From an uncultured Alphaproteobacteria bacterium (GTDB lineage Bacteria; Pseudomonadota; Alphaproteobacteria; RF32; CAG-239): 34,862 nt of DNA. The stretch covers positions 1-34,862 of the forward strand of contig CALXWF010000009.1 in the NCBI GenBank assembly GCA_944392285.1, given 5' to 3'. The first letter of the stretch is position 1. Each line of letters starts with the position of its first letter. A program made the position numbers and the translations under genes. The notes beneath the pieces are model-generated. The model was given only the letters and a program-made list of their open reading frames with translations, made no database searches and was not told the DNA's origin. Shown in pieces: positions 2,623 through 34,862 of the stretch.

Positions 2623-3159
2623 TTACCATGTTTGCCAATGGATTTTTTCTTCTTTATACCTGTCTTCAGGTTGTTTCGGCGTTTCAGCCGGATAACCAAT
2701 CGGAACAATGGCAAACGGTCTGATATTGTCAGGCAGATGCAAATATTCTTTCAAATCATCTACGACTCTTTGCATCGGCGCCGCGCCGCAATAGCAAGCT
2801 CCCAAACCTTTGGCATGAGCCGCCAAAAGCAGGTTTTCGGTTGCAATGGCGCAATCAACATCAACAAAGCTCCATTTTTCATTGTCTTTGTCGCGGTTAA
2901 AAGACTGATTGATATCGCCGCAAACAAAAATGACGCAAGAAGCATCTTTGGCAAAAGAGGTCCAGCGTTGGATATGACGCAAATGCGCCAAAACCTCTTT
3001 ATCTTCAACGACCAAAAACTCCCACGGCTGACGATTGTGCGCTGTCGGCGCATATTGTGCCGCTTTAATGATTTCTTTGATGGTTTCGTGCGGAACTTTG
3101 CGCTCTGTATCATATTTGCGAATCGAGCGACGGGTTAATAACCCTTCCATTAAATCCAT
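2623..3159 (-). CDS. Nitroreductase family protein (FMN-dependent)
   Basis: This 178-aa ORF has the N-terminal RRSIRKY motif, APTAHNRQPWEF and GLGACY segments typical of the nitroreductase fold. An AAGGA ribosome-binding site lies upstream of the ATG. Confidence 0.85.
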   Translation of the reverse strand: MDLMEGLLTRRSIRKYDTERKVPHETIKEIIKAAQYAPTAHNRQPWEFLVVEDKEVLAHLRHIQRWTSFAKDASCVIFVCGDINQSFNRDKDNEKWSFVDVDCAIATENLLLAAHAKGLGACYCGAAPMQRVVDDLKEYLHLPDNIRPFAIVPIGYPAETPKQPEDRYKEEKIHWQTW

Positions 3160-3179
3160 GATATAAATCCTTGTGTTAT

Positions 3180-3806
3180 TTAATTTACTGTCCTGCGCAA
3201 GCTCTCAATTCTCGGGAGCACGGAATTTTCAATGATAAAGGCTATGGCCTTTTCTACCATTTTGTCCGTGTGGCTCAGGGCTTTTACAACTTCATCCAAA
3301 TTACTGCCTTTGTCAAGTTTTTTCCCTAAGCTATTGTAAACGCCAGATAATTCGCTTAAAGAATCTGTCATACGGGCAATGTAGGCCGGCAAATTTAAGT
3401 CTTGTTTGCCACCCCAAAAACCTTCAAGAAAACCATATTCAACTTCTACCAAGCGAATGTCGCATTGAAGTTTGAGACTTTCAACATCTTTAGAAAATTT
3501 GTGTGACGGCAGGGTTATTTTGTTTTCAGCCACCAAAGAAAACATTTCATCCCACAAACCCATAAAAAACTTAAAAAACAAATCTGCCTCTTCTTTGGTT
3601 TCAAGCCTGGGGGTCTTGCCCTCCGGCCACAAAGAAGATATGACATCTGCCGGACGAAGCTCCAGATTAGGACTGCAGACGGCGCCGGCAAAACGCATCT
3701 TAATTACCGACAAAGGAGTCGGGCAGTTATAATGCTCTAAGAGTTTTAAAAATTTATCATCTCCGATATAATTGTTTTTTTCGCTTTGCATTTTTTTCTT
3801 CTTCAT
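3180..3806 (-). CDS. Hypothetical protein, possibly UPF0149/YecA-like
   Basis: This 208-aa ORF fills the gap between neighbouring genes on the same strand. The family assignment rests only on remembered similarity of the central segment (CSPNLELRPADVISSLWPEG...EEADLFFKFFMGLWDEM) to UPF0149 proteins. Confidence 0.55.
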   Translation of the reverse strand: MKKKKMQSEKNNYIGDDKFLKLLEHYNCPTPLSVIKMRFAGAVCSPNLELRPADVISSLWPEGKTPRLETKEEADLFFKFFMGLWDEMFSLVAENKITLPSHKFSKDVESLKLQCDIRLVEVEYGFLEGFWGGKQDLNLPAYIARMTDSLSELSGVYNSLGKKLDKGSNLDEVVKALSHTDKMVEKAIAFIIENSVLPRIESLRRTVN

Positions 3807-11584: not shown

Positions 11585-12303
11585 AATTCAAATTTGCTTC
11601 CGAGTTGTTCTTTTAAGACTTTTTGCGGCACTTCTTTCACTTCTCCGGGTTTGAGCGCACCGAGCTGAAACGGCCCGTAAGAAAGGCGAATTAGGCGCGC
11701 GACCTCAAGGCCTAAATGTTTCATGACTTTACGAATTTCGCGGTTTTTGCCTTCAGACAAAGTTACCATCAGCCAAGCATTGGAACCTTTTATGGTTTCA
11801 ATTTCGGCTTTTATCGGGCCATAGTTAATTCCGTCAACGGTAATTCCCTCTTGCAAACGGCTTAAGGCCTCGGTATTAATACGACCATGGACTCTGACTT
11901 TGTAGCGGCGCGACCAACCGTTGGACGGAAGCTCCAACTTGCGCGACAGCTCACCATTATTGGTTAACAATAACAAGCCTTCAGAGTTTAAATCAAGTCG
12001 GCCGACAGAAATAACACGCGGCAACCCGCTCGGCAAAGAGGCAAACACGGTCGGCCGTCCTTGCGGGTCTTTATGAGAAGTGACCAAGCCTTCCGGTTTA
12101 TAATAAAGCCAAAGGCGGGTTTTGTCGGTTTGCGGCAACTTCTCGCCGTCAAAAAGTATTTTCTCGTCTCCCGTGACATTTAATGCCGGAGAAGTAACAA
12201 TTTCACCGTTAACGGTAATGCGTTTTTGCGCAATCAACACCTCAGCTTCGCGGCGCGAACAAATGCCACTGCGGGCAATATATTTGGCTATTCTTTCAGT
12301 CAT
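11581..12303 (-). CDS. Pseudouridine synthase, RsuA/RluB family with S4 domain
   Basis: It has an N-terminal S4 RNA-binding domain (RIAKYIARSGICSRREAEVLI) and a catalytic Asp motif (GRLDLNSEGLLLLTNNGEL). Confidence 0.85.
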   Translation of the reverse strand: MTERIAKYIARSGICSRREAEVLIAQKRITVNGEIVTSPALNVTGDEKILFDGEKLPQTDKTRLWLYYKPEGLVTSHKDPQGRPTVFASLPSGLPRVISVGRLDLNSEGLLLLTNNGELSRKLELPSNGWSRRYKVRVHGRINTEALSRLQEGITVDGINYGPIKAEIETIKGSNAWLMVTLSEGKNREIRKVMKHLGLEVARLIRLSYGPFQLGALKPGEVKEVPQKVLKEQLGSKFEL

Positions 12304-29153: not shown

Positions 29154-30020
29154 ATGACTATGGCCAAAAAAAATACTAAAATTGCTTTAATCTACGATTT
29201 TGATAAAACTTTAAGCTCTGCCGATATGCAGGATTTTTCTCTTATTCCGGCTTTTGGCGTTAAACCTGAAAAGTTTTGGCGAATAGCAAATAATTGGTCA
29301 AAAGAGCAAGAAGCCGATCAAATCACCGGCTCAATGTATTATATCATGAAAACCGCTCAAGAAAAAAACATTCCCCTCACGCGTGAGTTTTTAAAAACTT
29401 GCGGCGAAAATATTGAATATTATCAAGGGGTTGAAAACTGGTTTGAGCGCATTAACGAATATGGCAAAGAGCTCAACCTTAATATTGAACATTTTTTAAT
29501 ATCATCAGGATATGAAGAAATTTTGGCCGGCTCAAAAATTCGCAAGCATTTTACCGACATGTTTGCCTGCAGCTATGCCTTTAATGATGAAGGGCTTCCA
29601 GTTTGGCCGGCACGCGTCATTAACTATAGCATCAAGGTACAATTTTTAACAAAAATCAATAAAGGCTTGCGCAAAATTGATGATATTGCCGTTAATGAGT
29701 TTATGCCGGTAGAAAAACGGCCTATTCCCTTTGATCGTATGATTTATTTCGGCGACGGAATGACGGATATTCCATCAATGAAATTAATTAAAGAACGCGG
29801 CGGAAACGCCATTGCTGTTTATGCTCCGGGCAAAAGCAAGGAAAAACATAAGGCCATAAAACTCTTGAAAGATGATCGTGTTAATTTTGCGCTCAAAGCT
29901 GATTACCGCGAAAACCGCGAAATTGACAAAGTGGTAAAAACCATCTTGGATAAAATCGCCAAAGAGAGAGATTTAGAGATTTTGCAAGCGCGTGAGAATA
30001 AAAAGAAGTTTGAATTTTAA
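29154..30020 (+). CDS. HAD-superfamily hydrolase-like protein
   Basis: This 288-aa ORF has the DxDxT motif I (IYDFDKTL) and a late GDGMTD motif (motif IV-like). A GGAG ribosome-binding site lies upstream. Confidence 0.75.
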   Translation: MTMAKKNTKIALIYDFDKTLSSADMQDFSLIPAFGVKPEKFWRIANNWSKEQEADQITGSMYYIMKTAQEKNIPLTREFLKTCGENIEYYQGVENWFERINEYGKELNLNIEHFLISSGYEEILAGSKIRKHFTDMFACSYAFNDEGLPVWPARVINYSIKVQFLTKINKGLRKIDDIAVNEFMPVEKRPIPFDRMIYFGDGMTDIPSMKLIKERGGNAIAVYAPGKSKEKHKAIKLLKDDRVNFALKADYRENREIDKVVKTILDKIAKERDLEILQARENKKKFEF

Positions 30021-30181: not shown

Positions 30182-31846
30182 TTAGATGCGCTTCTTGCTT
30201 TTGAGATACTCTTTTGAGGCTCGCGCCTTTAGTCGTTTTATTATTGGGGTGTCGCCAAGTGGTAAGGCACCGGTTTTTGGTACCGGCATTCGTAGGTTCG
30301 AATCCTGCCACCCCAGCCAAAGTTGACAAGAGCCTATTTTAGCGAGTGCTAAAATAGGCTTTCTTATTGAAATTTCTATATTTTTACCGTCTAATAAAAT
30401 TTCCGAACAAAGTAATTTTAAAATCTGCTGTTTTTTGTCGTTGTTCAGAAAATTCCATATCTGATCTGACATCAAAAGCAATCCTGCTAAGTATTTTAGC
30501 GTTATTAATCCTTGATTAGTCAGATGACTATAGTCTGTTAATCGTTCTTCCAGTTTTTTCTTTTCATGTCTATATTCGGTTATTTTTTTAATATATAAAT
30601 CTTGTGTAATACTAGCTTCTGTATACAGGTCAATCAAACGACTCTCCTTCTCCGTAAAACCTGCAATTTGTCGTTCCAATGCCTTCTTGGCTTCTATTTC
30701 CATTTTATGATCTTTATACATTTCTTCATTTAAGCATTCCACCATTTTTTCGACAACGCCTTTAGGTATGTTTTTAAGCGTTTTTAACGCCTCTTTCACT
30801 TTTTCAACCCCTTTTTCTTCTCTTGTTCGATAACCGCTGCATTGCGGGCAAAAAAGGTATTTATAAACGATTTTTTCATCTCCTTTCTTTTTGGCTTTAT
30901 GTATATTGATATCCGTCGAAATGATTCCGCCACATTTTTTGCAACGAACCAATCCCTTAAAAACATAATCATGCTTCTGAACCTTATGATTAGCCTTTCC
31001 TTCCAAAATATCTTGGCACTTCTCAAACGTCTCCTTATCTATCAATTTTGGGTAACAATGTGGATAATAATGCCCGCCGCTATACATTTCTCCCATATAA
31101 AAACGATTGCTCAATATGCCTCGTATGGTTTGCTTATGGATTTTATTACTGTTTTTCATTTTTAATCCGTAATCAGCGGCTTTTCTCGTTATCTGCTCCA
31201 AATTATATGTGCCGATTGAAAAATCTTTAAATAAGCGAGTAATTATAAAATGTTTATCTGCATCTAAAATAATTTCGCTATTTCCATTTTCATTTCTTAC
31301 ATTCTTATAGCCGACAGGTGCATGATGTGCCCATTTTCCCTCTTTACGCATTTTTTCAAAACTTCTTATTACATTATCACTCATTGTATCAGTTTGCGAC
31401 TGAGCTACAGTAATCCGAAAGTTCCACATCAACTTATCATGAGCTTTAGCATTCTTGGCTATCACCGATTGTTCCGTATTAAAATGAATGACAATTTTTT
31501 CTTTTTCAATCAGCTCATTCAAAACATTATATTCTTTGAAACTCCTTTGCAAACGGTCAACCTTATCACAAACCAAAGCAACCGGATTTTTATATTTTTT
31601 GATAAAATTTATCATATTATAAAATTCTTCCCGTTCTCCTCTGGTCGAACTTTCCACTACGGTAAATTGCTTAACCACTGTTAACCCTCGTTGCACGCAA
31701 TAATTTTTTAACCTGTCTTCCTGAGCATCAAGTGAATAACCTTCTTTTTGCTCCCGACTTGACACTCTTATCCATAAAACAGCGTGTTTTATATTTTCAT
31801 TTTTTACAACTTTTACGACTTTTCTGCCCATGTTTTTACCTTTCAT
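30182..31846 (-). CDS. Large serine recombinase (resolvase + recombinase + zinc-ribbon/coiled-coil domains)
   Basis: It has the catalytic motif WIRVSSREQ, DKVDRLQRS, the recombinase-domain motifs APVGYKN and LSNRFYMGEMY, and the zinc ribbon CKKCGG...CPQCSG followed by a coiled coil. The family-typical C-terminus (DGKNIEISIRK) ends near 30360. The last ~57 codons are antisense to the terminator and tRNA-Gln. The start is ATG 31846 or 31831. Confidence 0.85.
   Translation of the reverse strand: MKGKNMGRKVVKVVKNENIKHAVLWIRVSSREQKEGYSLDAQEDRLKNYCVQRGLTVVKQFTVVESSTRGEREEFYNMINFIKKYKNPVALVCDKVDRLQRSFKEYNVLNELIEKEKIVIHFNTEQSVIAKNAKAHDKLMWNFRITVAQSQTDTMSDNVIRSFEKMRKEGKWAHHAPVGYKNVRNENGNSEIILDADKHFIITRLFKDFSIGTYNLEQITRKAADYGLKMKNSNKIHKQTIRGILSNRFYMGEMYSGGHYYPHCYPKLIDKETFEKCQDILEGKANHKVQKHDYVFKGLVRCKKCGGIISTDINIHKAKKKGDEKIVYKYLFCPQCSGYRTREEKGVEKVKEALKTLKNIPKGVVEKMVECLNEEMYKDHKMEIEAKKALERQIAGFTEKESRLIDLYTEASITQDLYIKKITEYRHEKKKLEERLTDYSHLTNQGLITLKYLAGLLLMSDQIWNFLNNDKKQQILKLLCSEILLDGKNIEISIRKPILALAKIGSCQLWLGWQDSNLRMPVPKTGALPLGDTPIIKRLKARASKEYLKSKKRI
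30246..30320 (+). tRNA. tRNA-Gln (anticodon UUG), CCA encoded
   Basis: It folds as a 75-nt cloverleaf: TGGGGTG TC GCC AAGTGGTAA GGC A CCGGT TTTTGGT ACCGG CATTC GTAGG TTCGAAT CCTGC CACCCCA G CCA. U1:A72 and G73 are as in bacterial tRNA-Gln. Confidence 0.93.
30332..30370 (+). terminator. Intrinsic terminator after tRNA-Gln (lies inside the recombinase ORF on the other strand)
   Basis: A perfect 13-bp stem AGCCTATTTTAGC / GCTAAAATAGGCT (30332-30344 / 30349-30361) with a GAGT loop is followed by TTCTTATT. Confidence 0.6.
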
Positions 31847-31936: not shown

Positions 31937-32788
31937 CTATGCTGCCAACTTCATATTTTTTCCTTCCTCAGCATTATGGTGAAGTTCTCGCGCCAATTTA
32001 TCTTGCACCGCCATGAAAACTTCTTCTTTGATTAATCTCTCATAATTATGGCGATAAAGCTTTCCTCCACTACGCATCAGCCCGCAATAGAAAGGGTTTT
32101 GCAATAAATGAAGCAGTGTTCTTCGACTGATTAATGCACCTGATGTTGTATACAGCGGCATAGACTTTGCAAGCTCAAGCAACATTTTGATATCAACTTT
32201 CGTTTGCAAATAGATGTCAAATAGACACTTAACCTTATCAGCCTGTTCATCAAACTCAATCCAAGGAATCCAACTTGGGCGACAATTCTTGTACCCTATC
32301 GGGGCTTTGCCTGGGTATAAGCCTTTTTCTCTCATGTCTTGCAAAGCCTTTCTATCTTTTTCTGATTTTTCTGCAGAAAAATGCTCGGCACTGGCTATCA
32401 ACTGCCTGTATTTAAACATTGTATCAGCATCGGAAAGCCTCTTGATAACCATAGCCTCTTTAACAAAGTGTATTTCAACCTTCTCTTCCTTTACCAATAC
32501 ATCTAATATCGATATATGGTTAAAATTTCTGGCAAGCCTATCCGCAGAAGCGACAACCAAAGCAATTGGCTCGCTTGAGACTTTTTCTATTATCTCTAAT
32601 ATCTTATCAAATTTGGGGCGTCTTTGAGCAAAGGCTCTTTCGATTGCCATTTGACTTTCTATAATTTTTAAATCATTATTCCGGCAATACTCTTTACAGA
32701 TAACTTCTTGCTCAATCAAAGATGCTCCAGTGTTTTGCTTTACCGAAGAAATACGGCACATAATGATTGCGGATCTAGCGGCAGTCAT
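31937..32788 (-). CDS. Short serine recombinase (resolvase + recombinase domains only, no zinc ribbon/coiled coil)
   Basis: This 283-aa ORF has the catalytic motif MCRISSVKQ, ADRLARN, and the recombinase-domain motifs APIGYKN and LQNPFYCGLM. A GGAG ribosome-binding site lies upstream, and the start overlaps the upstream gene by 14 nt. Confidence 0.8.
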   Translation of the reverse strand: MTAARSAIIMCRISSVKQNTGASLIEQEVICKEYCRNNDLKIIESQMAIERAFAQRRPKFDKILEIIEKVSSEPIALVVASADRLARNFNHISILDVLVKEEKVEIHFVKEAMVIKRLSDADTMFKYRQLIASAEHFSAEKSEKDRKALQDMREKGLYPGKAPIGYKNCRPSWIPWIEFDEQADKVKCLFDIYLQTKVDIKMLLELAKSMPLYTTSGALISRRTLLHLLQNPFYCGLMRSGGKLYRHNYERLIKEEVFMAVQDKLARELHHNAEEGKNMKLAA

Positions 32789-33917
32789 TTTTTTCTCCTT
32801 TTCTTAAAATTATTACATTATTTTCATCGATAGCGGCAGTAATTGCCTCTAAATCTGGCTGCAGCCAATTATTCCGTGGCTCAATTTGATTAATCATTCG
32901 AAAAAGATCATAAATGGCAGGAGAGAAAACATTTCCGGCATGTAGTTTTAACTCTCGTTTTCCCATTTTTTTCAGAATTGTAACCAAACCGACCAACTGA
33001 AGGGCTTTAAGAAATTTGTATTTGTTATCCAGCAGGCGTTTAAACAAATCTCCTGCATCTTCGTCACTTAATTGCAAGTATTTGACGGCGGATAAAATTT
33101 CGTTCCAATAAGTCAATGTAACAGCTCGGCAAATCTGGCTATTGAAAAGATTTTGGAAAGTTAACTCTGGCACGGGAAGTCCCGCTTTGCTTATTGCTTT
33201 ACGAATATTGTCTGAATTGCCAAGCTGAATTTCAATCCGCAGATACTGGCTGGAACCCAATAAAGCCAAATTAAGACTTTCAGCATTTTCTGGATTCACC
33301 GCACGTTTTTTATTGTACTGCGCTTTTTGAATGTCTTTAATTTTATCGTAAATAACAACATTTCGATGTTGAGATAAAAAGTGTAATGAATGTCCTTCAT
33401 TTCTGTACGAAACTTTGGTGCAATCAAGTCTGCGTGTGATATCGGCTTTGTTTAGATATTGCAAAATTACGTATGGAGCGATATTCACCGGAACATTTTT
33501 GCCATAATCGATTCTTACCACTTGAGCGGATCGCAGTGCTTGAGGTAAAACATCAATCCCCATTTCTCGTAACCTTGACGCCAAATTTTCGATAAGATTG
33601 TCAAAATCGGCATCGCCAATTTCTTCCAAATTATTTGGTGGAAAATTAAGGAGCTTTGGAGCTGAAAACTCAATTTTGAGTTTAACGCTAAACCCACCGT
33701 ATCGAACAACACTGCTTAATGAAACTTTGGGATAATAACCCCATCGCAAATCATCAAATCTGGCATTGTAATAACAAGTTACTGCTTCAGCTCCGTGCAT
33801 ATTCCACAGAATTTCGGGGCTTGGTTTGAAGCAAGAAAGTTTATTAATAACAATATCCGCATAATCCACCAATAAAACACAGGTATCACAGACATTTTTG
33901 CTTTTAATATCGAGCAT
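32775..33917 (-). CDS. Hypothetical protein with rolling-circle replication-initiator-like motifs (Rep_trans / phage gene II-CRI-like, tentative)
   Basis: This 380-aa ORF has an AGGAG ribosome-binding site. The ordered motifs VVRIDYGKN, RNVVIYDKIKD and YLRIEIQLGN resemble the R-x-D, YDK and R-x-E-x-x-L blocks I recall from Rep_trans/Phage_CRI initiators. No search was run. Confidence 0.5.
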   Translation of the reverse strand: MLDIKSKNVCDTCVLLVDYADIVINKLSCFKPSPEILWNMHGAEAVTCYYNARFDDLRWGYYPKVSLSSVVRYGGFSVKLKIEFSAPKLLNFPPNNLEEIGDADFDNLIENLASRLREMGIDVLPQALRSAQVVRIDYGKNVPVNIAPYVILQYLNKADITRRLDCTKVSYRNEGHSLHFLSQHRNVVIYDKIKDIQKAQYNKKRAVNPENAESLNLALLGSSQYLRIEIQLGNSDNIRKAISKAGLPVPELTFQNLFNSQICRAVTLTYWNEILSAVKYLQLSDEDAGDLFKRLLDNKYKFLKALQLVGLVTILKKMGKRELKLHAGNVFSPAIYDLFRMINQIEPRNNWLQPDLEAITAAIDENNVIILRKGEKNDCR

Positions 33918-34613: not shown

Positions 34614-34862
34614 TTAAGCACATTTTATTTCTTCTTTTGACTGAAACTTGTCATTCAATTGTTGTAACACAAAATAAGCCATTTGCTCTATGACGGGAAT
34701 CGTAACGGAATTTCCGAATAACTTATATTGTTGAGTATCTGAAACTTCTTTCGGAAAAGAAAACATATCTGTTCCGTCCGATTGCTTAAAAGCATAATTT
34801 ATAAAGCCTTGCAATTTTCCCCATTCATTTGGAGTCATTACTCTAATGAATTTATCATTCAC
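34614..34862 (-). CDS. DNA (cytosine-5)-methyltransferase, C-terminal fragment (gene continues beyond the right edge)
   Basis: It has motif IX-like RVMTPNEWGKLQGF and motif X FGNSVTIPV. The reading frame is open to the window edge, so the M in the ORF track is an edge artefact. Confidence 0.85.
   Translation of the reverse strand: MNDKFIRVMTPNEWGKLQGFINYAFKQSDGTDMFSFPKEVSDTQQYKLFGNSVTIPVIEQMAYFVLQQLNDKFQSKEEIKCA

What the first reader, a model, noticed from the sequence alone, without database searches (positions are those of the whole stretch)
30182..30382. Large serine recombinase ORF has no stop of its own and reads antisense through the tRNA terminator and tRNA-Gln
The family-typical C-terminal beta-strand motif (LLDGKNIEISIRK) ends at about 30360. 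The frame then continues for 57 more codons. It passes through the perfect 13-bp terminator hairpin (30332-30361) and the whole tRNA-Gln antisense (..GWQDSNLRMPVPKTGALPLGDTP..) to a stop at 30182. The element/host junction therefore probably lies at or inside the 3' end of the recombinase ORF. If so, the integrated and excised forms would encode different C-terminal tails. A comparable layout, with the att site inside a gene, underlies integration-dependent regulation in some temperate phages. Transcription of the recombinase would also be antisense to the tRNA and head-on to its terminator.
Basis: partly seen in the sequence, partly recalled or inferred. Interest (0 to 1): 0.6.

Follow-up and report, generated by a model that had tools for sequence, protein, structure and literature searches.

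The report
Serine integrase gene spanning its attP
A mobile island has inserted at the very end of a tRNA-Gln gene, and because its recombination site lies inside its own serine-integrase gene, insertion replaces the enzyme's last 37 or so residues with 43 read off the antisense tRNA, while a hairpin hidden in the integrase coding sequence most likely gives the tRNA a new terminator.

Summary
ORF 30182-31846(-), 554 aa, is a large serine recombinase (LSR) that reads antisense through a 13-bp hairpin and the whole tRNA-Gln.

- Family homology stops at 30314, not at about 30360. The host-coded tail is therefore 43 codons, not 57.
- The hairpin is not the host tRNA's terminator. It is element DNA inside conserved coding sequence.

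Polymorphism patterns, attL/attR pairs in near-identical elements and empty sites in relatives place the crossover within 30314-30320 (CAGCCAA). This is the last acceptor base pair, the discriminator base, CCA and one further base.

In 62 of 81 homologous loci (30-100% identity, several phyla, 11 tRNA types), the LSR ORF likewise ends in the antisense 3' end of a tRNA. The last conserved Trp is the antisense of CCA. Forms with an uninterrupted attP carry a conserved tail of about 37 residues. In integrated copies that tail lies 6.85 kb away at the other junction.

The hairpin is kept across the clade by compensatory changes, and integration displaces the tRNA's native terminator. I read it as a replacement tRNA terminator.

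Whether the tail swap regulates the enzyme, as in Mx8 IntP/IntX, is untested.

Earlier reports of this scan describe the same layout on other DNA (94 notes, at least 89 genomes). I found no paper that describes it.

The parts
30245..30319 (+). tRNA-Gln(UUG). The body is host DNA. The last 6 nt fall within the shared crossover core, so they are rebuilt with element DNA.
   Evidence: ARAGORN; Rfam RF00005 at 61.8 bits. Host-specific differences from L002/L005 occur only at 30270-30306. Relatives without the element keep the same synteny.
30314..30320 (.). Crossover core CAGCCAA, the identity block shared by attL and attR. It covers tRNA nt 71-76 plus one base. The exact central dinucleotide is not determined.
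   Evidence: attL and attR of L002/L003/L004 share exactly this block. It is bracketed by the last host-specific difference at 30306 and the first element-specific difference at 30322. The partial dyad of the uninterrupted attP in L001 is centred here (my reading of the sequence).
30331..30360 (+). Element-borne hairpin with a 13-bp perfect stem and a 4-nt loop. It starts 12 nt after CCA and is encoded antisense by LSR codons K496-S506. Proposed replacement terminator for the tRNA.
   Evidence: Energy is -20.8 kcal/mol. 11 of 13 pairs show double changes, and covariation is 0.405 against 0.162 in shuffles and 0.11-0.21 in slid controls. It is the most stable 44-nt window on the antisense strand of the gene in 26 of 35 distinct loci.
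30361..30369 (+). T-rich run after the hairpin (6 T in 9), encoded antisense by the conserved S-I-R-K codons.
   Evidence: Sequence. The run is nearly invariant in alignment A2. Caveat: the simple terminator scan did not list it.
30314..31846 (-). Element-encoded part of the large serine recombinase (M1-L511). W510 is the antisense of CCA.
   Evidence: Pfam; homologues; codon map; fold of the homologue P0064 matches solved serine integrases.
30182..30313 (-). Host-encoded substitute tail (G512-I554) plus stop codon. It is read from the antisense tRNA-Gln and the spacer upstream of the tRNA.
   Evidence: Translation and codon map. The tail differs between homologues according to the tRNA allele and flank.
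31937..32788 (-). Small serine recombinase paralogue (283 aa; resolvase and recombinase domains, no zinc ribbon or coiled coil), directly upstream of the LSR.
   Evidence: Pfam. A paralogue in the same position recurs in many loci.
32775..33917 (-). Rep-like protein of 380 aa with a weak match to filamentous-phage gene II / CRI initiators. Element cargo or replication module.
   Evidence: Pfam PF05144, E 9.5e-5, 22.6 bits. Conserved next to the recombinase pair in L001, L096 and L097.
34614..34862 (-). C-terminal fragment of a C5 cytosine methyltransferase. The element runs off the contig end, so its far junction is not in the window.
   Evidence: Pfam PF00145. Window = whole contig C9. L005 continues with a full methylase, a Vsr-like gene and a 692-aa gene.
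29154..30020 (+). HAD-like phosphatase, the host flank gene. It serves as the synteny marker for occupied and empty sites.
   Evidence: Pfam. HAD-tRNA-Gln synteny is seen in G001, G004, G012 and others.

Best explanation
The DNA from 30314 rightwards is an integrative island. A large serine recombinase (LSR) inserted it into the 3' end of the host tRNA-Gln gene.

The element's attachment site (attP) lies inside the LSR's own reading frame, about 37 codons before its natural stop. Recombination with the tRNA end, within CAGCCAA at 30314-30320, therefore does three things at once:
1. It rebuilds the last bases of the tRNA from element DNA.
2. It places an element-borne hairpin plus T-rich run 12 nt behind the CCA. 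This motif is written on the antisense strand of LSR codons 493-506. It most likely terminates tRNA transcription in place of the displaced native terminator, and it keeps tRNA read-through out of the element.
3. It cuts off the LSR's conserved C-terminal tail, predicted to be helical, and moves it to the far junction. The integrated gene then ends in 43 residues read from the antisense tRNA and upstream spacer. Excision would restore the native tail.

Shown here: the architecture, the junction position, the tail swap at sequence level, conservation of the hairpin by compensatory change, and recent horizontal spread.

Inferred: that the LSR is the enzyme that did the insertion, that the hairpin terminates transcription, and any effect of the tail swap on activity.

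My odds: architecture about 0.9, hairpin as tRNA terminator about 0.65, tail swap functionally important about 0.3.
For: - Homologue tails. In 120 homologues the sequence is conserved up to the W-L pair and then splits into classes. Several classes are antisense-tRNA tails and one is a conserved non-tRNA tail.
- Recurrence. In 62 of 81 loci the ORF end overlaps the 3' end of a tRNA on the other strand, across 11 tRNA types.
- Reciprocal polymorphism. Against the same element in other hosts (L002, L005), the only differences lie at 30270-30306, followed by none or two over the next 300 nt. Against another element variant at the same tRNA allele (L085), there are none until 30322.
- Both junctions. 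L002/L003/L004 hold attL and attR 6.85 kb apart. They share CAGCCAA, with the missing tail in frame at attR and a native hairpin plus T6 terminator just beyond it.
- Empty sites. G004 and G012 have HAD followed by tRNA-Gln and no LSR. In G004 a hairpin plus T-run terminator follows the tRNA directly.
- Tail coding. The tail keeps its frame and stop. Differences between tail copies number 6-7 synonymous and 7-12 non-synonymous codons per pair, and they fall mostly at third codon positions. The tail is 66-71% identical between LSR groups that are about 55% identical overall.
- Hairpin. Covariation, energy rank, and a G-U bias of 17 against 6 towards the tRNA sense.
- Spread. Element DNA is 99.2-99.5% identical between hosts whose flanking housekeeping genes are about 75% identical.
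- Fold. The model of P0064 matches full-length serine integrase complexes: 9dxd at E 1.7e-21, Bxb1 9iu2, LI 4kis.
Against: - The far junction of this particular copy is not assembled. It is absent from G000, and the twin element in G041 also runs off its contig. The attR evidence therefore comes from elements with the same LSR (99.2% identical DNA) but other cargo.
- No read-level evidence of excision and no RNA data. Only Logan contigs were on offer, and they break inside the tRNA.
- The contigs with an uninterrupted attP (L001, L096, L097) are not circular. In L001 the element sits between two autotransporter paralogues, so these are not shown to be excised circles.
- The hairpin stem is A+T-rich (5 G-C of 13 pairs) and the T-run is interrupted. 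The simple terminator scan did not list it, and RNAalifold found no consensus because the register shifts between subgroups.
- The hairpin is weak or absent in the most distant loci, those at 30-33% identity.
- Part of the tail's conservation could reflect its double role as the P arm of attP rather than protein function.
Confidence: 0.8

Rival explanations
1. The tail swap is a neutral by-product. The attP overlaps the end of the gene only because the element is compact and its P' arm must carry the tRNA end and a terminator. On this view the enzyme works the same with the native tail, the tRNA-derived tail, or none.
For: Integrated-form tails vary widely in length and sequence. Some end 2-3 codons after the Trp and others run on for 40 to over 100 codons, which suggests that what follows the core matters little. 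The model gives the tail low confidence, pLDDT 52-67. The first 8 or so tail codons double as the P arm of attP, which alone could explain part of their conservation.
Against: The native tail keeps its frame, length and stop even when detached at attR. It is better conserved than the protein average between the 55%-identity groups (66-71%), and it extends about 110 nt beyond the core, well past a typical LSR half-site. A related W-x-x-L-V-D-x-L-R-T tail is seen in Bacteroidota homologues at 32-35% identity.
Confidence: 0.5
2. The hairpin is not a tRNA terminator. It serves the element in another way: as part of the DNA site that the recombinase recognises (outer P' arm), as a stabilising 3' structure of the integrase mRNA, or as a block to antisense transcription in the excised form only.
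For: The first hairpin arm lies 12-24 bp from the core, where LSR zinc-ribbon domains contact attP (established knowledge of LI/A118 and Bxb1 complexes). The stem is A+T-rich with an interrupted T-run and was not called by the scan. There are no RNA data.
Against: A DNA half-site needs no self-complementarity. The stems differ completely between subfamilies yet stay paired. The T-rich run follows only in the tRNA sense. Wobble pairs favour the tRNA-sense RNA, 17 against 6. Spacing from CCA (12 nt) matches the native terminators at the empty or displaced sites, 10-14 nt. Integration demonstrably removes the native terminator.
Confidence: 0.2
3. The tRNA-Gln belongs to the element, and the true junction lies left of 30182. 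The long ORF would then be the natural gene.
For: BLAST alignments between element copies run through the tRNA to 30243/30244.
Against: That extension only reflects tRNA conservation. Within it, all 5-6 differences are host-specific and stop at 30306. Relatives keep HAD followed by tRNA-Gln without any element. The HAD-tRNA spacer and tRNA of the same-genus genome G001 match the window, while its element is only 83% identical. Homologues sit at 11 different tRNA types.
Confidence: 0.02
4. Another recombinase made the insertion: the small serine recombinase paralogue, or the 199-aa tyrosine recombinase seen in related islands. The LSR overlap with the junction would then be incidental.
For: A small serine recombinase always accompanies the LSR in the close relatives. 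A 199-aa tyrosine recombinase lies in the L001 and L002 islands.
Against: Only the position of the LSR ORF end is locked to the tRNA end, across 30-100% identity and whatever the cargo. The 7-bp shared core without long direct repeats fits serine, not tyrosine, integrases. The part of the element held in the window has no ORF matching a tyrosine recombinase in the Pfam scan, and its far end is unassembled.
Confidence: 0.05

Closest known systems
Myxophage Mx8 integrase (intP/intX)
   Same: attP lies inside the integrase coding sequence. Integration creates a gene with a new 3' end and an altered protein that is still active but changed in its properties (review PMC6070905, citing Tojo 1996 and Magrini 1999). 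From my own knowledge, the target is the 3' end of tRNA-Asp genes.
   Different: Mx8 Int is a tyrosine recombinase with a different mechanism and a longer identity segment. An embedded antisense terminator is not known to me there. Whether the activity change applies here is untested.
Phage-type large serine integrases (Listeria A118/LI, Bxb1, phiC31, TP901-1, SPbeta SprA)
   Same: Domain order is resolvase, recombinase, zinc ribbon with coiled coil. Foldseek matches full-length complexes. The junctions share a short core without long repeats.
   Different: The classical members target protein-coding genes or intergenic DNA, and their attP lies beside the int gene, not inside it. Here the target is the CCA end of tRNA genes, and the ORF crosses the crossover point. 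The large LSR survey I read does not mention tRNA at all (10.1101/2021.11.05.467528).
Serine-recombinase integration into tRNA genes: filamentous phage phiRSM1 (tRNA-Ser) and Mycobacterium AICEs (tRNA-Leu)
   Same: A serine recombinase inserts at a tRNA gene; for phiRSM1 the 3' end is stated. Ghinet et al. 2011 call this rare (PMC3218068). The window's element also carries a filamentous-phage-type Rep-like gene.
   Different: From my own knowledge, phiRSM uses a small resolvase-like enzyme. An attP inside the ORF, a tail swap and an embedded terminator are not reported in the text I could read.
Tyrosine-integrase islands and prophages at tRNA 3' ends (P4-like, Islander/TIGER islands)
   Same: The element carries a copy of the tRNA 3' end, so the gene stays intact after insertion (PMC12884075). 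The integrase gene sits at the tRNA-proximal edge.
   Different: Those duplicate tens of bases of the tRNA. Here only 7 bp are shared and the enzyme family is different.
Integration-dependent gene alteration (mycobacteriophage BPs/Brujita immunity; SSV1-type split integrase)
   Different: There the gene is a repressor whose tail carries a degradation tag, or an archaeal tyrosine integrase that is split. No such regulatory outcome is shown here.
Tycheposons and cryptic tRNA-linked elements of Prochlorococcus
   Same: Small cargo-carrying islands next to tRNA genes, some with replication genes. 27 of 937 carry a large serine recombinase (10.1101/2020.12.28.424599).
   Different: The layout of attP relative to the LSR ORF is not described in the text I read. 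Relatedness of those LSRs to this clade was not tested.

Membership tests
Large serine recombinase (serine integrase) | N-terminal resolvase-type catalytic domain with the serine nucleophile | tested here: met
   PF00239 at 74.3 bits over residues 22-172. R27, V28 and S29 are invariant in alignment A1. Matches the catalytic domains 3guv and 3bvp.
Large serine recombinase (serine integrase) | Recombinase domain following the long alpha-E helix | tested here: met
   PF07508 at 51.8 bits over residues 201-283. The model of P0064 has helix 130-164 followed by an alpha/beta domain.
Large serine recombinase (serine integrase) | Zinc-ribbon domain with cysteine ligands and an inserted coiled coil | tested here: met
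   PF13408 scores only 18.4 bits, below its 25.3 cut-off. However, C302, C305 and C336 are invariant. The model has beta strands at 295-337 and long paired helices at 357-434. Foldseek aligns the whole length to 9dxd, 9iu2 and 4kis.
Large serine recombinase (serine integrase) | attP x attB gives attL and attR with only a short shared core | tested here: met
   A 7-bp shared block at both junctions of L002/L003/L004; no longer direct repeat.
Large serine recombinase (serine integrase) | Catalyses site-specific integration; excision needs a directionality factor | not testable with these tools
   Indirect evidence only: the same element at 99% identity in hosts that are about 75% identical.
Mx8-type 'attP inside int' integrases | attP within the integrase ORF, so that integration changes the C-terminus | tested here: met
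Mx8-type 'attP inside int' integrases | Tyrosine recombinase chemistry | tested here: not met
   The enzyme is a serine recombinase. This is an analogue of Mx8 Int, not a member of its family.
Mx8-type 'attP inside int' integrases | The integrated-form protein has altered activity | not testable with these tools
   Needs a recombination assay.
Intrinsic (Rho-independent) terminator | Stable stem-loop directly followed by a U-run on the transcribed strand | tested here: inconclusive
   13-15 bp stem at -20.8 kcal/mol followed by 6 T in 9, conserved by covariation. However, the stem is A+T-rich, the run is interrupted, and the consensus scan did not call it.
Intrinsic (Rho-independent) terminator | Transcripts end there | not testable with these tools
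   No RNA holder listed.

The most novel reading that the evidence does not exclude
The tail swap is a built-in state sensor. The free element would make a full-length integrase whose C-terminal helix is needed for, or tunes, attP x attB integration. The integrated element would make a tail-swapped enzyme with different directionality, stability or activity. It might act together with the small recombinase paralogue and with convergent tRNA transcription. That would give a whole clade of tRNA-targeting serine integrases an integration-dependent control, with one 50-nt stretch of DNA serving at once as protein code, attP arm, tRNA end and terminator.
Probability: 0.3. Interest if true: 0.75.

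Novelty: new variant of a known kind. Interest (0 to 1): 0.6.

Why it matters
Serine integrases are the main tools for unidirectional DNA insertion, and their natural targets are usually described as protein-coding genes.

A broad clade that targets the near-universal CCA end of tRNA genes offers predictable landing sites in many bacteria, including uncultured gut lineages. It spans 11 tRNA types and several phyla.

The layout is also a compact case of overlapping codes. One short stretch is the C-terminus of an enzyme, half of its own recombination site, the rebuilt end of a tRNA and, very probably, that tRNA's terminator. It shows protein sequence evolving under an RNA-structure constraint on the opposite strand.

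If the tail exchange changes enzyme behaviour, it would be a new way for serine integrases to control direction, alongside recombination directionality factors.

For annotation, integrase ORFs of this clade are chimaeras when called from integrated copies. Their true C-termini lie kilobases away.

Tried and rejected
- RNAalifold on the 35-sequence alignment gave no consensus structure, because the hairpin register shifts by 1-3 nt between subgroups. I counted pairs on a stated structure instead.
- The far junction of this copy was not found. A tblastn search of the native tail against the whole genome G000 found nothing. The twin element in G041 runs off its contig after 8.85 kb without a tail.
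- Public runs: no RNA holder listed. All runs are Logan contigs, which break inside the tRNA and say nothing about excision or expression.
- Circularity: contigs with an uninterrupted attP have no terminal overlap. L001 carries two 90.8%-identical autotransporter paralogues on either side, so I do not call these excised circles.
- The inverted spare copy of attP reported by earlier scan reports for Patescibacteria elements was not found in L002 or in the window.
- Simple terminator scan: the hairpin is not listed. If the stem is extended to 15 bp, only 4 T remain in the next 8 bases. This is my explanation and is not tested.
- Sequence search of the PDB matched only catalytic domains; the fold search was needed.
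- Literature: six searches and eight papers gave no description of a serine integrase ORF crossing its attP at a tRNA end. The library is incomplete, so this is not proof of absence.
Full report
**1. What is in the window.**
The ORF at 30182-31846 on the minus strand encodes 554 residues. It has a resolvase catalytic domain (74.3 bits), a recombinase domain (51.8 bits) and a weak zinc-ribbon match.

tRNA-Gln(UUG) lies at 30245-30319 on the plus strand (Rfam 61.8 bits). A perfect 13-bp stem with a 4-nt loop lies at 30331-30360, followed by a T-rich run.

The frame crosses both features and stops at TAA, 30182-30184, in the spacer between a HAD-like gene and the tRNA. The hairpin coordinates are off by one base.

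To the right lie a 283-aa serine recombinase paralogue, a Rep-like gene and a methylase fragment cut by the contig end. The window is the whole contig C9.

**2. Where homology stops.**
A search returned 477 homologues, of which I read the best 120. Printing their C-termini shows conservation running through the peptide encoded by the hairpin and on to a Trp followed by Leu or Gln. After that point the sequences fall into discrete classes:
- several different antisense-tRNA tails;
- one non-tRNA tail of about 37 residues that is conserved between subfamilies (P0062, P0064, P0066, P0090);
- a few other tails.

The codon map puts W510 on 30317-30319, the exact antisense of CCA. L511 falls on 30314-30316. 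The host-derived tail is G512-I554, so it is 43 codons, not 57.

**3. The layout is a clade property.**
I fetched 80 loci from species-representative genomes using a profile of the family. In 62 of 81 loci (the window included) the LSR ORF end overlaps the 3' end of a tRNA gene on the opposite strand.

| tRNA type | Loci |
|---|---|
| Gln | 15 |
| Pro | 13 |
| Trp | 7 |
| Asn | 7 |
| His | 7 |
| Ala | 4 |
| Leu | 3 |
| Glu | 2 |
| Arg | 2 |
| Val | 1 |
| Ser | 1 |

By record titles the hosts are gut Alphaproteobacteria, Melainabacteria/Gastranaerophilales, Rickettsiales, Fusobacterium, Berkiella, Magnetococcales and others.

Most of the remaining loci are cut by contig ends, carry tRNA fragments, or are uninterrupted-attP forms. 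Four Bacteroidota loci belong to the last group and have a related W-x-x-L-V-D-x-L-R-T tail.

**4. Mapping the junction.**
Three independent lines agree.

(a) Reciprocal polymorphism.
- Against L002 and L005 (the same element, 99% identical, in other hosts), the window differs only at 30270-30306. It then has no differences (L002) or two (L005) in the next 300 nt.
- Against L085 (same genus, same tRNA allele, element only 83% identical), there is no difference until 30322, and many after that.

(b) Both junctions in one locus. L002, L003 and L004 contain both junctions, 6.85 kb apart.
- The LSR side is identical to the window.
- At the far side the missing tail lies in the same orientation. 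It is preceded by the same CAGCCAA block and, beyond it, by a hairpin plus T6. I take that to be the displaced native tRNA terminator.

(c) Empty sites. In relatives G004 and G012 the HAD-like gene is followed by tRNA-Gln and then by unrelated DNA with no LSR. In G004 a hairpin plus T-run terminator follows the tRNA directly.

The crossover therefore lies within 30314-30320. The uninterrupted attP in L001 shows a partial dyad centred on this block. That is my own reading, and the exact dinucleotide is not determined.

**5. The native tail.**
The tail at attR of L002 keeps its frame, its length (39 codons counting the shared W-L pair) and its stop.

Compared with L001 it has 7 synonymous and 7 non-synonymous codon changes, and 11 of 18 base differences fall at third codon positions.

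Between the 75-100% group and the 55% group the tail is 66-71% identical, above the protein average.

An AlphaFold model of the attP-form P0064 gives the usual serine-integrase domains, with mean pLDDT 77.5. After the last beta hairpin it predicts a helix at 491-529 and another at 532-542, which the crossover would cut at residue 506. Confidence there is low, pLDDT 52-67.

Foldseek matches full-length serine integrase complexes: 9dxd at E 1.7e-21, Bxb1 9iu2, phiC31, and LI 4kis.

The substitute tail in the window contains several Pro and Gly residues and is unlikely to continue that helix (inference).

**6. The hairpin belongs to the element and is selected as a structure.**
It lies inside the conserved coding sequence (codons 496-506). 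It is present in nearly all loci with at least 34% identity, but with quite different stem sequences and correspondingly different peptides.

- On an alignment of 35 distinct segments, 11 of 13 stem pairs show changes on both sides. The covariation score is 0.405, against 0.162 +/- 0.017 in shuffles (0 of 500 reach it) and 0.11-0.21 when partners are slid.
- In 26 of 35 distinct loci it is the single most stable 44-nt fold among roughly 240 windows on the antisense strand of the gene (median z -4.5). In the 30-33% identity group this holds for only 4 of 14.
- Among rows in the common register, wobble pairs favour the tRNA-sense RNA, 17 against 6. This is weak, because the sequences are related.
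- The T-rich run follows only in the tRNA sense.
- The distance from CCA (12 nt) matches the native terminators (10-14 nt).

Since integration removes the native terminator, a replacement terminator is the simplest reading.

Caveats: the stem is A+T-rich, the T-run is interrupted, the consensus scan did not list it, and there are no RNA data.

**7. The element is mobile and mosaic.**
- Element DNA is 99.46% identical over 4619 bp to L005, and 99.23% over 2347 bp to L002/L004.
- The flanking HAD and GlyRS genes of those hosts are about 75% identical to the window's, or not syntenic at all.
- The tRNA-Gln alleles differ too.
- The cargo changes beyond about 32589. L002 carries a Piwi-domain protein, a DpnII/MboI-like gene and a 199-aa tyrosine recombinase. 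The window and L005 carry Rep, methylase and Vsr-like genes.
- A different LSR lineage (41% identical) occupies the same tRNA-Gln site in G019.

**8. Mechanism.**
Shown here: the position of attP inside the ORF, the rebuilt tRNA end, the exchanged tail, the conserved hairpin and the displaced native terminator.

Inferred: that the LSR catalysed the event, that the hairpin terminates tRNA transcription and shields the element from read-through, and that excision restores the full-length enzyme.

Unknown: whether the integrated-form enzyme behaves differently. The conserved, still-coding detached tail argues for a function. The great variety of substitute tails, and the tail's double duty as the P arm, argue that it may be tolerated noise.

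**9. Comparison with what is known.**
- The nearest analogue is myxophage Mx8. Its attP lies in the int gene, and integration yields a recombinant gene with a new 3' end and changed properties (PMC6070905). That enzyme is a tyrosine recombinase.
- Ghinet et al. call serine-recombinase integration into tRNA genes rare. They cite phiRSM1 and a group of Mycobacterium elements (PMC3218068).
- The tycheposon preprint counts 27 of 937 tRNA-linked elements with a large serine recombinase.
- A large LSR survey does not mention tRNA.
- A review of streptococcal elements notes that serine integrases mostly disrupt protein genes (PMC5357655).

I found no description of an LSR ORF crossing its own attP at a tRNA end, or of the embedded terminator. 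The library is partial.

**10. Relation to earlier scan reports.**
A word search shows 94 notes in at least 89 genomes with the same theme. They include follow-ups that describe serine integrase genes spanning their attP at tRNA-Met, Ala, Gln, Trp, Pro and Arg, and one that also names the terminator role.

My analysis reached the same layout independently, before I read them. It adds covariation statistics, empty sites and the 99%-versus-75% contrast for this alphaproteobacterial clade. The inverted spare attP reported for Patescibacteria elements is not present here.

**11. Verdict.**
It is a new variant of a known kind: large serine integrases. It is analogous to Mx8 in logic and is widespread.

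Noticed in passing
window 31937-32788(-); also L001:2768-3619, L002:5629-6252, L096:5893-6756, L097:5440-6270: A small serine recombinase paralogue of 207-287 aa sits directly upstream of the LSR. It has resolvase and recombinase domains but no zinc ribbon or coiled coil. It recurs in all the close relatives I examined and in several distant loci (L046, L047, L052, L071). It could be a partner or a directionality factor.
   Followed up: partly
L002:1574-5483 (same in L003, L004): The island with the near-identical LSR carries different cargo: a 732-aa Piwi-domain protein (prokaryotic Argonaute), a DpnII/MboI-like 375-aa protein and a 199-aa tyrosine recombinase. The break in similarity to the window lies at about window 32589, inside the small recombinase gene.
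   Followed up: partly
L001:1-12050: The element with an uninterrupted attP lies between two autotransporter paralogues that are 90.8% identical over 913 bp. The homology ends a few bases after their stop codons. How the element got there, or whether it is part of a larger element, is unexplained.
   Followed up: partly
L011:8488-12011: Here the LSR frame runs on after the core for about 3.2 kb without a stop. A tRNA-Gln-like antisense stretch follows only at 11919-12011. This may be a second insertion between the LSR and the tRNA.
   Followed up: no
L008:8473-8709; proteins P0056-P0059, P0068: Some copies abut only the last 15 or so nt of tRNA-Gln and then unrelated DNA, with a full tRNA-Gln further on in L008. 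A fragment that long cannot come from a 7-bp serine-recombinase core. It suggests accretion with other tRNA-targeting elements.
   Followed up: no
L005:1-3235 plus G041:C3:125048-126374 (L101): The twin of the window's element continues with a full C5 methylase, a Vsr-like gene, a 692-aa protein and a 203-aa protein before its contig ends. This is probably a restriction-modification or defence cargo.
   Followed up: no
window 30216-30238: A short terminator-like hairpin plus T-run sits just upstream of the tRNA-Gln, presumably ending the HAD-like gene. The LSR's substitute tail is read antisense through it as well.
   Followed up: no
L087 (G019:C7), tRNA-Gln at 3146-3220: An LSR only 41% identical to the window's occupies the same position at a nearly identical tRNA-Gln, with its own, different hairpin. 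Distinct lineages of the clade therefore compete for one site.
   Followed up: partly
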